A stretch of DNA of 7,953 nt from Candidatus Helarchaeota ASGARD archaeon Hel_GB_B. Lineage in GTDB: Archaea > Asgardarchaeota > Lokiarchaeia > Helarchaeales > HEL-GB-B. This document shows, one piece after another, positions 4,838 to 7,573 of the stretch (its first letter is position 1; every line of letters begins with the position of its first letter). The translations under genes and the position numbers were made by a program. The notes under the pieces were generated by a model. It was not told where the DNA came from, made no database searches, and saw only the letters and a program-made list of their open reading frames with translations. The stretch covers positions 1-7,953 of the forward strand of contig SUPR01000129.1 in NCBI GenBank assembly GCA_005191425.1, read 5' to 3'.

Positions 4838-6094
4838 ATGATTATAAAAAAGCGAAATTTATTATGTATAATGAAAAGAGAAAATCTTGATTTAGGGCAT
4901 ATGCTGCTATATGCCCCTTATAAAAATATACTTACAAAATTTGTTGAATTATCTATTAATCCAAAAGCTATTGAGTTTGATCCTATTTCTAAAATTTTTG
5001 ATGGTTTAGAAAGTATTTCTGAAGGATTAAAGCATTACTATGAAGCTTTATTGGGTGTTACCTCCTATTATCAACATAGTCAAGGTGGGAGAGGTAAATA
5101 CATTGAAAAAAAATTCGCATCCTTAGTAAATTCATGTTCGCTTAATATCAAATTAAGTGAATTACCTTTTTGGCTCCAATATCCTGATTTACATAGAAAA
5201 AAGGGAATTTTTACATTAAAAAATTTATCTTCTAATGAAAAATCAATTATAAGAAGAATTGATTGGGACTATATAGGGAAAGAAGATGAGACGACAGATC
5301 TTGGAAATTTATTAAAAAAAGAAAAGACCATTGTTTTAATTGAATTAAAAAATCGGGTAGATTCAGGTGGGACTGCAGCCAGAAGGGAAATTTGGACAAA
5401 AAAATTTAAAACTATATTAAATTATATTTATGACAATACAATAAAACTATATAGAAGAGAAGATAAAGAATTTTCCTTGACTGAATTATTAAAAATTTTT
5501 GGATTTGAAAAAATAGAAATTTATATTGCCATCCTTTTTAATGCAGATGGTAATTCAGCTACAAGATTGGGTGATAAAGAGAATGGTTTTTATTCTTCTA
5601 ATGAAGAGGGATATAGAGATTTAAAAAATGCAATATTAAATAAAGGACTTACTATTTTAACAGATAATATTTCTGAACTAGAAATTTCATTTAAAATTAA
5701 TGGTATATATGTTCTTTTTGGGGCTATTTATGGTGATGAGATCCCTCTCAAGTATTTTAGACAAAATTATTCGATATCTGATATTTTAATTTTAAATTAT
5801 GACGACATATGGCTTTCTCAGTTAACCGCTATAAGTGAAAGGAAATTTTTATTAGAATTCAATAATAACTATATGAAAATTTTCAAAAACATTGTGAAAA
5901 AGGATCAGAAGATTAGGATTTTATATGATAAATTTATAACTTCTGAGGGAGATGAAAATACATTACAAAAATTAATTGAATATTTAATACAAAATTTTTC
6001 AAAAGATTTTCCATCCAATCTTTGTCCATCACAAAAAAATAGGATCGAATATTTGGCAGATGTAATTCAAATCATAGCAGCTTCAGAAGCATAA
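4838..6094 (+). CDS. Putative PD-(D/E)xK nuclease, probable Type II restriction endonuclease; alternative start ATG 4871
   Basis: Candidate catalytic elements occur in the expected order: a helix with Glu (GRGKYIEKKF), an acidic strand start (ETTDLG), and a hydrophobic strand ending in ExK (IVLIELKNRVDSGG) followed by a helix. The gene lies next to a DNA methyltransferase. No helicase, ATPase or MTase motifs. The assignment rests on motif pattern plus context. Confidence 0.65.
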   Translation: MIIKKRNLLCIMKRENLDLGHMLLYAPYKNILTKFVELSINPKAIEFDPISKIFDGLESISEGLKHYYEALLGVTSYYQHSQGGRGKYIEKKFASLVNSCSLNIKLSELPFWLQYPDLHRKKGIFTLKNLSSNEKSIIRRIDWDYIGKEDETTDLGNLLKKEKTIVLIELKNRVDSGGTAARREIWTKKFKTILNYIYDNTIKLYRREDKEFSLTELLKIFGFEKIEIYIAILFNADGNSATRLGDKENGFYSSNEEGYRDLKNAILNKGLTILTDNISELEISFKINGIYVLFGAIYGDEIPLKYFRQNYSISDILILNYDDIWLSQLTAISERKFLLEFNNNYMKIFKNIVKKDQKIRILYDKFITSEGDENTLQKLIEYLIQNFSKDFPSNLCPSQKNRIEYLADVIQIIAASEA

Positions 6095-6205
6095 AAACAA
6101 TTCATAATTAAATTATTATGATTTTTTATTTACTTCATTAATTACTCTTCTTTTCGGGTATTCAACTAAAATTTGACATCAAATTAACTTTAATATTTTA
6201 AATCT

Positions 6206-7573
6206 CTAATCATTTTTCATAATAATAATTCGATCAAACTTTTTTTTCTTTGACCTACTTGCTACTTTATTTAATGGAATTTCATCTTTAATAATATCAA
6301 GAGTTTCGAAACCTATATCTTTATAAATCTCTCCCACGCGCTCAGCTGTATTAATAAATGATTTAGTTCTAATTACATCTCCTAAAATAAAAATAATATA
6401 TCCTTCTGGAATTAAGACTCTTTTTAATTGTATTCCTACTTTTTTCATTTCGTCAAGATATGTTTGACTATTTTGAATTAATTTTTCTTTTAATAAATCT
6501 TGATTTTCTCTATTTAACCCCAAAAAGAATAAACGCACTCTATTTTGACTTGTATAATCTAAAGTATTATAATATGGCGGAGAACTTATTATAACATCTA
6601 TTGAATCTTTTTTAAGACTCTTTAGTTCTCTTGCATCTTCATTTAGGATTATACCCTTTGTTTTTAAAGGAATTTTATTTGAAAACATTCTCATTACTTT
6701 AGCAGCCATTCGAGGGATGGTTGCTCTATATTCTGGAATATCTTTATCTGGTCTAAATTTAGGGTGTGTTTTAGGACGAGGTTTCATTGGGATAATACAA
6801 CCTGTATAAACAGATAAATAACCCGGGCGATTACCATGTAAAATTCCCATTAAACATGCATGTAAAAAATATTGTTTTTCATCATTTAGTTTTTCATTTA
6901 AATAAAGTATTTCCTTTAAAGTCTTTTCATGAAAATATGCTTTAATCCAATCTGGAATATTATCAATAGATTTATTATTAGAAACTACATCATCGGAAAT
7001 ATTTTTTAAGTAATCTAAATGATCATTTAGAGGGCGTCTATCAAATTTTCCCATAGAAATCAAATATGCGTATGGGTTTAAATCACTTCCAATGCCTTTT
7101 CGGTTTAATAAATCAGCTTCTAAAGGGACAGTTCCTGACCCACAAAATGGATCTAAAATAGTCATATCCGGACTGGAAAATGCCCTTATAAGCCAATGAA
7201 CAAAAGATGGGGTCAACCGTCCTTGATATGGAGAAAGACTATGTAACCAATGCCCCCAATGCTGCTTATCATATGGTTCTTTTCTCCATCTTAACTCTTT
7301 AGTGATAGAAATTGCTTTTTTTATGTCAAATGATTCTCTTGAAGGAAAAAATTCTTTAAATTTTTTCAAACTGAACTTTTTTTGAAATTCTATCTTAAAA
7401 TTTTTTGTTAAATTATTTGAATATAAATTTTGCCAAATTTTTATGTATCGAGGGTATTTTTCATTATCCCATATTTCTTCTCTTTTTTTAATTCCAAAAA
7501 ATGACAAAATGTTTGTTTGAGAGGTTCTCACTTTTTTCAAACCATTATAATTTTTGGTTATATTTTTCTCCAA
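6206..7573 (-). CDS. Site-specific amino-DNA methyltransferase, alpha class (motif order X-I-II-III-TRD-IV), probably N4-cytosine; N-terminal extension with PIP-box; TTG start
   Basis: Motif X HSLSPYQGRLTP, SAM-binding motif I ILDPFCGSGTVPLEA and motif II GIGSDLNP precede the variable region. Motif IV DVIISSPPYYN, VI LKRVLIPEGYIIFILGD and VIII-like GFETLDII follow it. SPPY is typical of m4C enzymes, but m6A is not excluded. There is no in-frame ATG before motif X and TAA immediately precedes the TTG. Confidence 0.9.
   Translation of the reverse strand: MEKNITKNYNGLKKVRTSQTNILSFFGIKKREEIWDNEKYPRYIKIWQNLYSNNLTKNFKIEFQKKFSLKKFKEFFPSRESFDIKKAISITKELRWRKEPYDKQHWGHWLHSLSPYQGRLTPSFVHWLIRAFSSPDMTILDPFCGSGTVPLEADLLNRKGIGSDLNPYAYLISMGKFDRRPLNDHLDYLKNISDDVVSNNKSIDNIPDWIKAYFHEKTLKEILYLNEKLNDEKQYFLHACLMGILHGNRPGYLSVYTGCIIPMKPRPKTHPKFRPDKDIPEYRATIPRMAAKVMRMFSNKIPLKTKGIILNEDARELKSLKKDSIDVIISSPPYYNTLDYTSQNRVRLFFLGLNRENQDLLKEKLIQNSQTYLDEMKKVGIQLKRVLIPEGYIIFILGDVIRTKSFINTAERVGEIYKDIGFETLDIIKDEIPLNKVASRSKKKKFDRIIIMKND

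What the first reader, a model, noticed from the sequence alone, without database searches (positions are those of the whole stretch)
7496..7519. Canonical PCNA-interacting (PIP) box at the N-terminus of a restriction-modification-type DNA methyltransferase
Seen: residues 19-26 of the MTase are Q-T-N-I-L-S-F-F, flanked by basic residues (KKVRTS...GIKKR). They lie in a ~90-aa N-terminal extension well before motif X. Established: this matches the PIP consensus Qxx[ILM]xx[FY][FY], closely resembles the human DNA ligase I N-terminal PIP (QRSIMSFF), and eukaryotic DNMT1 is recruited to replication foci through a PIP-box. Inference: this amino-MTase may ride the archaeal PCNA clamp and remethylate nascent DNA at the fork, a DNMT1-like maintenance logic on an unrelated m4C/m6A enzyme. 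I do not know of this as a described feature of archaeal R-M MTases, but I cannot search the literature. PIP-like strings also arise by chance.
Basis: partly seen in the sequence, partly recalled or inferred. Interest (0 to 1): 0.8.

Follow-up and report, generated by a model that had tools for sequence, protein, structure and literature searches.

The report
PCNA-docking peptide on archaeal restriction methylase
A DNA methyltransferase of a restriction-modification system in an Asgard archaeon starts with a textbook PCNA-docking peptide on a floppy tail, so it probably rides the replication clamp and marks new DNA right behind the fork; binding itself is still untested.

Summary
Bases 7496-7519 (- strand) encode QTNILSFF, a perfect Qxx[ILM]xx[FY][FY] PIP box.

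- **Start codon:** the gene most likely starts at GTG 7531, so the motif is residues 5-12 of a 441-aa protein, not 19-26.
- **Host:** a Helarchaeota-like Asgard archaeon with one PCNA. No beta clamp was found.
- **Orthologue:** the same-genus orthologue keeps the motif (QTNILSYF) through synonymous changes, while the neighbouring codons diverge.
- **Family:** basal members of all three long-form subclades begin with the archaeal PIP-type string [ST]LD[KS][FY][LIVF]. Archaeal short forms begin with Q[ST]xLxx[FY]. No bacterial member whose host could be assigned has either string. One bacterial clade begins with QLxLF, the beta-clamp motif.
- **Structure:** AlphaFold puts the motif on a low-confidence tail.
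- **Co-fold:** a co-fold with the host's own PCNA places it in the canonical PIP groove (ipSAE 0.62, best control 0.02). This could be recall of solved PIP-PCNA complexes.
- **Partner gene:** the convergent 418-aa neighbour is a restriction-endonuclease-like PD-(D/E)xK protein that recurs beside this MTase family.

PCNA binding and fork-coupled methylation remain inference. I found no published archaeal PIP-bearing MTase. This scan has noted PIP-like C-terminal tails on other archaeal and viral MTases on other DNA; those notes were not checked here.

The parts
7496..7519 (-). PIP box QTNILSFF (residues 5-12 from GTG 7531; 19-26 of the TTG-opened frame)
   Evidence: Conserved as QTNILSYF in the same-genus orthologue with two synonymous changes and F->Y. 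In the co-fold, residues 1-14 contact the PCNA pocket, interdomain connecting loop (IDCL) and C-terminus.
7529..7531 (-). Most likely start codon (GTG)
   Evidence: It aligns with the ATG of the orthologue in L083. The 14 codons upstream (from TTG 7573) are not conserved, and L083 has a stop 3 codons before its ATG. The database protein P0002 starts here.
7472..7531 (-). Flexible N-terminal tail (residues 1-20) carrying the PIP, followed by the basic GIKKRE stretch
   Evidence: AlphaFold2 pLDDT is 44 for residues 1-10 and 60 for 11-20, against above 85 from residue 21. A short helix spans residues 8-12.
6206..7531 (-). DNA amino-methyltransferase CDS (441 aa plus stop). Motif I is DPFCGSGT (7130-7153) and motif IV is SSPPYY (6569-6586), in alpha-like order.
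   Evidence: Pfam N6_N4_Mtase, 63 bits. PADLOC Type II MTase models. Fold nearest Trm11/Trm14 and Dam. Coordinates.
7433..7462 (-). Start of the conserved folded N-terminal helical module (EKYPRYIKIW) of the long-form clade
   Evidence: Conserved across P0002-P0040. High pLDDT.
4838..6094 (+). Convergent 418-aa PD-(D/E)xK restriction-endonuclease-like partner. Invariant D154 (5297-5299) and E169-x-K171 (within 5342-5362).
   Evidence: No Pfam, NCBIfam or PADLOC hit. About 420-aa family at 50-67% identity across bacteria and archaea. Invariant D...ExK. VIA-align top rows are Type II REases: EcoO109I Z 7.5 (rmsd 5.2, 186 aligned), BstEII Z 6.3, Bse634I Z 5.9. It recurs beside this MTase family in L134, L145/L146, L083 and the P0275 contig.
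6095..6205 (.). 111-nt gap between the two convergent genes
   Evidence: ORF coordinates.

Best explanation
The gene at 6206-7531 (-) encodes the methyltransferase of a two-gene Type II-like restriction-modification system in an Asgard (Helarchaeota-like) archaeon.

Its first ~20 residues form a flexible tail. Residues 5-12, QTNILSFF, are a PCNA-interacting peptide. They are predicted to form the usual short helix, to plug Ile8, Phe11 and Phe12 into the hydrophobic pocket of PCNA, and to lie along the interdomain connecting loop (IDCL) and the C-terminal strand.

Tethered to PCNA rings left on newly made duplex, the enzyme would be concentrated on nascent, hemimethylated DNA. It could then restore full methylation before the partner endonuclease, or any reader of the mark, sees unmodified sites.

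- **Shown:** the motif, its position, the start codon by comparison, the archaeal host with PCNA, conservation of PIP-type strings in archaeal relatives, the predicted disorder, and the endonuclease-like neighbour.
- **Inferred:** physical PCNA binding (supported only by a co-fold with controls), action at the fork, and any preference for hemimethylated DNA.
For: 1. **Motif and rarity.** It is a perfect consensus. A strict PIP in the first 30 residues occurs in 4 of 2681 ORFs of this genome.
2. **Local PIP style.** The genome's bona fide PCNA clients end in the same style, with Ile at position 4: Fen1 paralogues QKRIDHYI and QTFIDQFL, and RNase HII QRKIDTFI.
3. **Host.** PCNA_N hit at E 6.7e-17. 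No DNA_pol3_beta hit in a 94%-complete genome.
4. **Purifying selection.** Against the 80%-identical orthologue, the PIP codons differ by ATT/ATA and TTG/TTA (synonymous) and TTT/TAT (F/Y). Codons 2-4 are all non-synonymous, and upstream DNA does not align.
5. **Long-form clade.** [ST][LI][DEN][KRS][FY][LIVF] starts within the first 25 residues in 9 of 38 long-form proteins, against 2 of 2681 proteome ORFs. This pattern was defined post hoc. It sits on basal branches of all three long-form subclades. It resembles the archaeal consensus peptide KTTQSTLDSFFK (PMC4929162). Examples are QSTLNKYI, NSTLEKFF, TTLDSFL and MTLDKYL. Some proteins carry two copies.
6. **Short forms.** Q[ST]x[LI]xx[FY] is N-terminal in 11 of 64 short forms against 1 of 2681 ORFs. 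Short-form contigs whose host could be assigned are archaeal: L147 carries ribosomal L37ae and Csa3; L148 carries Rpr2 and RpoN; L010 and L012 are DPANN by record title or phylum.
7. **Bacteria.** Bacterial members with an assigned host (L009, L015, L016, L017, L019, L020) have no such string. L013 has QLRLPL. The bacterial P0052 clade has QL[NTE]LF, which matches the beta-clamp consensus QLxLF.
8. **Disorder.** AlphaFold2 gives a low-confidence tail and a confident core.
9. **Co-fold with own PCNA.** ipSAE 0.62 (runs 0.60-0.63) against a best control of 0.02. That mark was reached by 58 of 80 solved complexes and 2 of 110 mismatched pairs; these counts hold only roughly because my own alignment was used. 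The runs share at least 61% of contacts. Partner pLDDT is at least 45. The interface is PCNA 40, 44-47, 122-129, 223-225 and 244-251 with MTase residues 1-14.
10. **Precedent.** IS1634 transposases, also mobile-element proteins, carry QLxLF in bacteria and QxxIxxFF in Methanosarcina, and both forms bind the respective clamps (PMC4549789).
Against: - No experiment exists, and there are no RNA or proteomic data for the start codon.
- PIP-PCNA complexes are abundant among solved structures, so the co-fold pass may reflect likeness rather than this copy's affinity. The partner's pLDDT is below 50.
- In the Heimdall/Hod-type clade, which is an orphan gene in housekeeping synteny, most members have a weakened string (TLFDHLG, with His or Ala at the aromatic position) or none (MALLESG...). 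The motif is therefore dispensable there.
- Some archaeal members lack it (L092, L011, L014).
- Host assignment is missing for several motif-bearing short-form clades, for example L130.
- The short-form motif has a polar residue at position 8.
- The gene is patchy in Asgard genomes (16 of 400 at E<=1e-30), so any role is accessory.
Confidence: 0.65

Rival explanations
1. The conserved N-terminal peptide is a real functional motif, but it serves something other than PCNA. It might dock on the partner endonuclease or on the second methyltransferase (MT2) found in related three-gene systems, act as an autoinhibitory or oligomerisation element, or act as a degradation signal.
For: The motif is best kept where an endonuclease-like partner is present (the window; L145 with MT2 plus an ORF418-like gene). 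It is decayed in the orphan clade. That pattern fits partner docking as well as a race at the fork. Only MT1 carries it, not MT2.
Against: The sequence matches the PCNA consensus and this organism's own client PIPs position by position. A bacterial clade carries the beta-clamp consensus at the same place, which a partner-docking peptide would not predict. The co-fold puts the motif in the canonical PCNA groove and fails with an unrelated protein in place of PCNA. Both the window and G126 lack MT2 yet keep the motif.
Confidence: 0.15
2. The PIP-like string is a chance product of an AT-rich, Ile/Leu/Phe-rich proteome and has no function.
For: Relaxed cores ([LIM]xx[FYW][hydrophobic]) start within the first 25 residues of 26% of this genome's ORFs. 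Four other ORFs have a strict N-terminal PIP with no evident tie to DNA. The motif is lost in many relatives.
Against: The strict motif has about a 0.15% prior per protein. It is conserved through synonymous changes in the orthologue while its flanks change. Homologous PIP-type strings sit at the same terminus across deep branches of the family, far above background. The tail is predicted flexible.
Confidence: 0.07
3. The motif is not part of the protein because translation starts inside or after it, for example at TTG codon 23 of the long frame.
For: Neither GTG 7531 nor TTG 7573 has a convincing Shine-Dalgarno or promoter assignment in this very AT-rich leader. Non-ATG starts are uncertain by nature.
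Against: The orthologue has an ATG at the position of GTG 7531. Relatives L004 and L005 also use TTG starts directly before their motif. No start codon lies between the motif and the conserved folded module, and the first ATG is codon 136.
Confidence: 0.03

Closest known systems
N-terminal PIP box of eukaryotic DNA ligase I (MQRSIMSFF..., from my own knowledge) and archaeal terminal PIP clients (Fen1, RNase HII, RFC-L, PolB/PolD, NucS, NreA; N-terminal PIP proposed for Thermococcales TIP, PMC4929162)
   Same: It has the same Q-x-x-h-x-x-a-a motif at an extreme terminus, on a flexible segment followed by basic residues. The same groove is predicted on PCNA.
   Different: The carrier is a restriction-modification amino-methyltransferase. 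That client class is absent from the archaeal lists I could read. Archaeal PIPs are mostly C-terminal, whereas this one is N-terminal.
DNMT1 PCNA-binding domain (eukaryotic maintenance C5-methyltransferase recruited to replication foci; established knowledge, not re-read here)
   Same: The logic is the same: a DNA methyltransferase is tethered by a PIP-type peptide in an N-terminal region to the sliding clamp, so that methylation follows replication.
   Different: The catalytic family is unrelated: an alpha-like N6/N4 amino-MTase with SPPY against a C5-MTase. This protein has no RFTS, CXXC or BAH domains. It sits in a defence (R-M) context. No preference for hemimethylated DNA has been shown. 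The resemblance is almost certainly convergent.
Clamp-binding motifs of IS1634-family transposases (QLxLF in bacteria, QxxIxxFF in Methanosarcina; PMC4549789)
   Same: It is a horizontally mobile gene family whose members carry a terminal clamp-docking peptide of the type matching the host's clamp. Here, archaeal members have PIP-type strings and the bacterial P0052/53/55 clade has QL[NTE]LF.
   Different: The enzyme is a methyltransferase, not a transposase. The motif is N-terminal, not C-terminal. Binding was shown biochemically for the transposases and not here.
Type II R-M methyltransferases of the N6_N4_Mtase superfamily (Pfam PF01555; PADLOC MTase_II)
   Same: It has motif I (DPFCGSGT), motif IV (SPPY) and an adjacent PD-(D/E)xK endonuclease-like gene. 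Its distribution is patchy and crosses the domains of life.
   Different: The motif order is permuted (I before IV, alpha-like) relative to the Pfam model. It has an extra folded N-terminal helical module and the PIP tail.

Membership tests
PIP-box client of PCNA | Sequence Q-x-x-[LIM]-x-x-[FY]-[FY] | tested here: met
   QTNILSFF at residues 5-12. Consensus as given in PMC4929162.
PIP-box client of PCNA | Motif lies in an exposed, flexible segment, usually at a terminus | tested here: met
   AlphaFold2 pLDDT is 44 for residues 1-10 and 60 for 11-20, with the core above 85. This is a prediction only.
PIP-box client of PCNA | Host uses PCNA | tested here: met
   One PCNA gene at G000:C124. No beta-clamp hit in a 93.7%-complete genome.
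PIP-box client of PCNA | Motif conserved among orthologues while its flanks vary | tested here: met
   QTNILSYF in the same genus with synonymous changes. [ST]LD[KS][FY]x strings occur in basal members of all long-form subclades. The motif has decayed in the derived orphan clade.
PIP-box client of PCNA | Physical, motif-dependent binding to PCNA | not testable with these tools
   Only a co-fold is available: ipSAE 0.62 against a best control of 0.02, in the canonical groove. It may reflect likeness to solved PIP complexes.
Type II restriction-modification system (MTase plus REase) | SAM-dependent amino-MTase motifs I (FxGxG) and IV ((S/D/N)PP(Y/F)) | tested here: met
   DPFCGSGT at residues 127-134 and SSPPYY at 316-321. 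PF01555 at 63 bits. PADLOC MTase_II.
Type II restriction-modification system (MTase plus REase) | Linked endonuclease gene | tested here: met
   The convergent 418-aa ORF has invariant D154...E169-x-K171. Its fold is nearest Type II REases at middling Z (5-7.6). It is linked to this MTase family in at least four other loci. Cleavage has not been tested.
Type II restriction-modification system (MTase plus REase) | Defined recognition site and modified base (m4C or m6A) | not testable with these tools
   SPPY hints at m4C, but no methylome data are available.
DNMT1-type maintenance methyltransferase | C5-cytosine MTase catalytic domain | tested here: not met
   Pfam, NCBIfam and fold searches all point to N6/N4 amino-MTases, Trm11 and Dam.
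DNMT1-type maintenance methyltransferase | Preference for hemimethylated DNA and action at replication foci | not testable with these tools
   This needs enzymology and localisation.

The most novel reading that the evidence does not exclude
This MTase family as a whole is clamp-tethered. Its N-terminus is an exchangeable docking peptide matched to the host's sliding clamp: PIP-type Q[ST]xLxx[FY] or TLDK[FY]L in archaea, and QLxLF in a bacterial clade. On this reading, fork-coupled methylation is a general way for R-M systems to out-run their own endonuclease. Transfer between the domains of life would require a motif swap, and the motif would decay once the endonuclease is lost, as in the orphan Heimdall/Hod-type clade. 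Together with the PIP-like tails this scan has noted on unrelated archaeal and viral MTases, this would mean that replication-coupled DNA methylation existed in the archaeal relatives of eukaryotes independently of DNMT1.
Probability: 0.35. Interest if true: 0.8.

Novelty: new variant of a known kind. Interest (0 to 1): 0.66.

Why it matters
Replication-coupled methylation through PCNA is a hallmark of eukaryotic epigenetic inheritance (DNMT1). In bacteria and archaea, methyltransferases are generally thought to find hemimethylated DNA by diffusion.

A restriction-modification methyltransferase hard-wired to the clamp in an Asgard archaeon would show three things:
- Clamp-tethered methylation arose independently in prokaryotes.
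- R-M systems have a simple way to avoid self-restriction of nascent DNA.
- PCNA has a new client class in archaea.

The claim is directly testable with a 20-residue peptide and recombinant PCNA. The domain-matched motifs (PIP against QLxLF) would also provide a marker for how mobile defence genes adapt to a new host's replisome.

Tried and rejected
- **RNA evidence:** no RNA holder is listed for window:6000-7953; only metagenome DNA runs hold part of it. The start codon could not be checked by expression data.
- **More members with known hosts:** phylum-wide genome searches around the DPANN (G400) and Patescibacteria (G401) members gave only 3 of 401 and 1 of 401 hits. The family is too rare there to enlarge this set.
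- **Host of the EQTTL clade:** ESM-Atlas look-ups of P0083 and of a neighbouring Tag gene were inconclusive. The clade was placed in archaea only later, through L147's neighbours.
- **Host of the QSRLLDF clade (L130/L131):** unresolved. NCBIfam on ten neighbours was uninformative.
- **The listing of cluster members:** it returned almost no organism names.
- **First enrichment test:** it used the proteins' own core as the null. I discarded it because conserved core positions inflate that rate. The proteome of G000 was used instead.
- **Foldseek on the ORF418 model:** no match at E<=0.001. Only VIA-align showed the endonuclease-like core.
- **Profile search of 1.84 billion representatives:** it added only distant relatives, including long (~850-950 aa) proteins (~900-aa tandem double MTases in bacterial loci), and nothing about the N-terminus.
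- **Second MTase (MT2):** not found with these queries in the window or elsewhere in G000. The contig ends 380 bp upstream of the gene.
- **RNA methylase reading (Trm11/Trm14-like fold):** considered and rejected because of the R-M gene neighbourhoods and the PF01555 and PADLOC hits.
Full report
**What is in the sequence**

The longest frame on the minus strand runs from TTG 7573 to the stop at 6206-6208, 455 codons. Codons 19-26 read QTNILSFF and map exactly to 7519-7496. The string satisfies the PIP definition QXXhXXaa (PMC4929162). It is preceded by KKVRTS and followed by GIKKRE.

The protein is a SAM-dependent DNA amino-methyltransferase. It scores 63 bits on Pfam N6_N4_Mtase and matches many PADLOC Type II MTase models. 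Motif I is DPFCGSGT and motif IV is SSPPYY. Motif I comes before motif IV, which is an alpha-like order. The AlphaFold2 model (mean pLDDT 87.6) is nearest to Trm11/Trm14 and Dam-type enzymes, but only weakly.

**Where translation starts**

There is no in-frame ATG before codon 136. The only ATG, GTG or TTG codons upstream of the conserved core are TTG 7573, a TTG at codon 12, GTG 7531 (codon 15) and a TTG inside the motif.

The same-genus genome G126 holds an orthologue that is 80% identical. Its ATG lies exactly where the window has GTG 7531, and a stop sits three codons further up. In a DNA alignment the two loci are unrelated upstream of that codon and similar from it onward. The database copy of the window's protein (P0002, 441 aa) also begins there.

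I therefore take GTG 7531 as the start, which puts the PIP at residues 5-12. Relatives in the Heimdall/Hod-type clade also use TTG starts immediately before their motif (L004, L005).

**The host**

The window is the whole of contig C35 of a 3.54-Mb genome (94% complete, 28% GC). The contig's composition matches the genome's. The genome has one PCNA gene and no hit to the bacterial beta-clamp family. The nearest database protein is labelled Candidatus Helarchaeota, and further relatives carry Heimdall-, Hod-, Thor-, Sigyn- and Promethearchaeota labels. The host is therefore an Asgard archaeon.

Its recognisable PCNA clients end in PIPs of the same local style, with Ile at position 4:
- Two Fen1 paralogues end in QKRIDHYI and QTFIDQFL.
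- RNase HII ends in QRKIDTFI.
- A DUF72 protein ends in QKTIDSFF.
- An HhH protein has QSSLDEYF near its C-terminus.

**Is it more than chance?**

In 2681 crude ORFs of this genome, a strict PIP lies within the first 30 residues in 4 (0.15%).

Against the orthologue, the eight PIP codons show two synonymous changes (ATT/ATA, TTG/TTA) and one F/Y change. Codons 2-4 are all non-synonymous.

The family falls into two groups. A long-form clade carries Asgard labels wherever labels exist. The short forms are spread over archaea and bacteria.

In the long-form clade:
- Basal members of all three subclades begin with strings such as QSTLNKYI, NSTLEKFF, NSTLDKYI, KSTLDRYI, TTLDSFL, KTLDKYL, MTLDKYL and MSLFKYL. 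Some proteins carry two copies.
- These resemble the archaeal consensus peptide KTTQSTLDSFFK.
- The post-hoc pattern [ST][LI][DEN][KRS][FY][LIVF] starts within the first 25 residues in 9 of 38 long forms, against 2 of 2681 proteome ORFs.

In the short forms:
- Q[ST]x[LI]xx[FY] is N-terminal in 11 of 64, against 1 of 2681. Examples are EQTTLAMYS, MQSSLMVYP and MQSTLRDF.
- Where I could assign a host, motif-bearing short forms are archaeal. L147 sits beside ribosomal protein L37ae and a Csa3-like gene. L148 sits beside Rpr2, RpoN and archaeal RpoD. L010 and L012 are DPANN.

The six bacterial members with an assigned host (Methylopumilus, Patescibacteria, Flavobacteriaceae, Paceibacterota, Roseburia, Shapirobacteria) have no such string.

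Two bacterial lineages carry the bacterial clamp motif at the same place:
- The P0052/53/55 clade begins with QLNLF, QLTLF or QLELF. L132 is bacterial by its bacterial-type tyrS, pyrimidine-nucleoside phosphorylase and PTS genes.
- A Saccharibacteria member has QLRLPL.
- The beta-clamp consensus is QLxLF (PMC4549789).

**Counter-trend**

In the large Heimdall/Hod-type clade, all 8 matches in family f16 (8 of 22 genomes) fall in one genus. There the gene sits in conserved housekeeping synteny (YdjM, thioesterase, flavodoxin) with no endonuclease-like neighbour. Most members have a weakened string (MTLFDHLG or MTLFDALG) or none (MALLESG...). A few other archaeal members lack it as well (L092, L011, L014). 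The motif is therefore not indispensable to the enzyme.

**Structure predictions**

AlphaFold2 gives pLDDT 44 for residues 1-10 and 60 for 11-20, with a five-residue helix at 8-12 and a confident core from residue 21.

The co-fold used the host's own PCNA (24-row alignment) and MTase residues 1-36.
- Score: ipSAE 0.62 (runs 0.60, 0.62, 0.63). The best of three controls scored 0.02.
- Calibration: that mark was reached by 58 of 80 solved complexes and 2 of 110 mismatched pairs. These counts hold only roughly because my own alignment was used.
- Agreement: the runs share at least 61% of contacts, and partner pLDDT is at least 45.
- Interface: PCNA residues 40, 44-47, 122-129 (IDCL), 223-225 and 244-251, with MTase residues 1-14. 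Ile8 and Phe11 make the most confident contacts.

This is the canonical PIP groove. Many such complexes are solved, so the pass shows likeness and not affinity.

**Genomic context**

The convergent 418-aa ORF (4838-6094) has no Pfam, NCBIfam or PADLOC hit. It belongs to a ~420-aa family that is 50-67% identical across bacteria and archaea. The family has invariant D154 and E169-x-K171.

Its AlphaFold2 model (pLDDT 85) has no significant Foldseek match. By VIA-align it aligns best with PD-(D/E)xK nucleases, mostly Type II restriction endonucleases: EcoO109I Z 7.5, BstEII 6.3, Bse634I 5.9, then PfoI, Cfr10I, FokI and NgoMIV at about 5.4. These Z values are middling.

Homologues of this ORF lie beside this MTase family in L134, L145/L146, the P0275 contig and, more divergent at 27% identity, the same-genus locus L083. 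Those systems often include a second, different MTase that lacks the N-terminal string. The window thus holds a two-gene R-M system. The family is patchy in Asgard genomes (16 of 400 at E<=1e-30), as mobile R-M genes usually are.

**Mechanism proposed**

The flexible N-terminal PIP docks the methyltransferase on PCNA rings that remain on newly synthesised duplex. This concentrates the enzyme on nascent DNA, so full methylation is restored before the cognate endonuclease can cut. That would explain why the motif is intact where the endonuclease-like gene is present and decays in the orphan clade. This last correlation rests on few lineages, and it also fits the rival in which the tail docks on the partner protein.

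The domain-matched motifs (PIP in archaea, QLxLF in a bacterial clade) argue for clamp docking. They mirror what was shown biochemically for IS1634 transposases (PMC4549789).

**Comparison with the known**

- Four literature searches and two reviews of archaeal PCNA partners and archaeal R-M systems turned up no archaeal DNA methyltransferase with a PIP box. The nearest item is a putative adenine MTase that co-purified with NucS in P. abyssi.
- DNMT1's PCNA-binding peptide and DNA ligase I's N-terminal PIP are the closest functional analogues, from my own knowledge. The catalytic domain here is unrelated to DNMT1.
- Within this scan, other agents noted PIP-like C-terminal tails on unrelated MTases of Prometheoarchaeum and other archaea and on archaeal viruses. 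I did not test those notes. If they hold, this case is one instance of a wider pattern, and it is the first in which the motif is N-terminal and fully canonical.

**Verdict**

Physical binding and fork-coupled action remain to be shown. I rate it a new variant of a known kind (a PIP-box client, and a PCNA-tethered methyltransferase) with interest of about 0.66.

Noticed in passing
window 4838-6094 (+): This 418-aa ORF has no family hit. It belongs to a widespread ~420-aa family (50-67% identity across bacteria and archaea) with invariant D154...E169-x-K171 and a restriction-endonuclease-like PD-(D/E)xK core. It is an uncharacterised REase family that lacks a Pfam model. It usually occurs in three-gene systems: MT1, MT2 and this protein.
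   Followed up: partly
L132:490-1836 (+), L134:142-1437 (+), L133:44-1321 (+): The bacterial clade of the same MTase family (P0052/53/55, about 50% identical to the window's protein) begins with QLNLF, QLTLF or QLELF. This is the beta-clamp-binding consensus QLxLF, at the position where archaeal members have the PIP. L132 is bacterial by its tyrS and PTS neighbours. Only three sequences exist in the 5.8-billion-protein collection.
   Followed up: partly
G000:C76:1528-2385 (-) = L139; G000:C118:5188-6171 (-) = L140: A DUF72 protein ends in a canonical PIP (QKTIDSFFKQQ). A 327-aa helix-hairpin-helix protein has QSSLDEYF near its C-terminus. Both are candidate PCNA clients of this Asgard genome.
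   Followed up: no
G000:C160:3636-4763 (-) and G000:C140:8669-9697 (-): Two paralogous, distantly related MTases of the same genome carry PIP-like strings without the Gln near their N-termini: TENVSEYL and SDIISEYL.
   Followed up: no
P0041-P0049 (metagenomic relatives, about 516-520 aa): This clade of the family replaces the PIP tail with an ~80-aa N-terminal winged-helix domain. The HTH_20 hit is weak (E 0.003). It may be a fused controller-type regulator.
   Followed up: partly
L099:1501-2319 (+) (PCNA of G000): The PCNA carries a ~25-residue, strongly acidic C-terminal tail (EEEEIDEESEDEEVPEIYDEDTEE). Its relatives have similar tails ending in D/E-F or Y.
   Followed up: no
G000:C106:11585-11830 (-) and G000:C105:28233-28478 (+): The genome has two Fen1/XPG-type paralogues, each with its own C-terminal PIP (QKRIDHYI and QTFIDQFL).
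   Followed up: no
G000:C128:43452-47516 (+) = L141: The PolD large subunit DP2 contains an intein (Intein_splicing hit at residues 949-1094).
   Followed up: no
L004:3513-5840 (-), L005:3513-5840 (-): In two Heimdall/Thor-labelled genomes the orphan MTase lies divergently next to a 775-aa Eco57I/MmeI-like Type IIG/IIL enzyme. This is a separate R-M gene.
   Followed up: no
L129:957-3418, L130:7081-9176, L147:8718-11167, L148:10001-14179: Short-form members sit in integrase-linked islands. Each has a second MTase and two ~370-400-aa ORFs of unknown family that are not ORF418 homologues. This suggests a different nuclease partner for the short-form systems.
   Followed up: no
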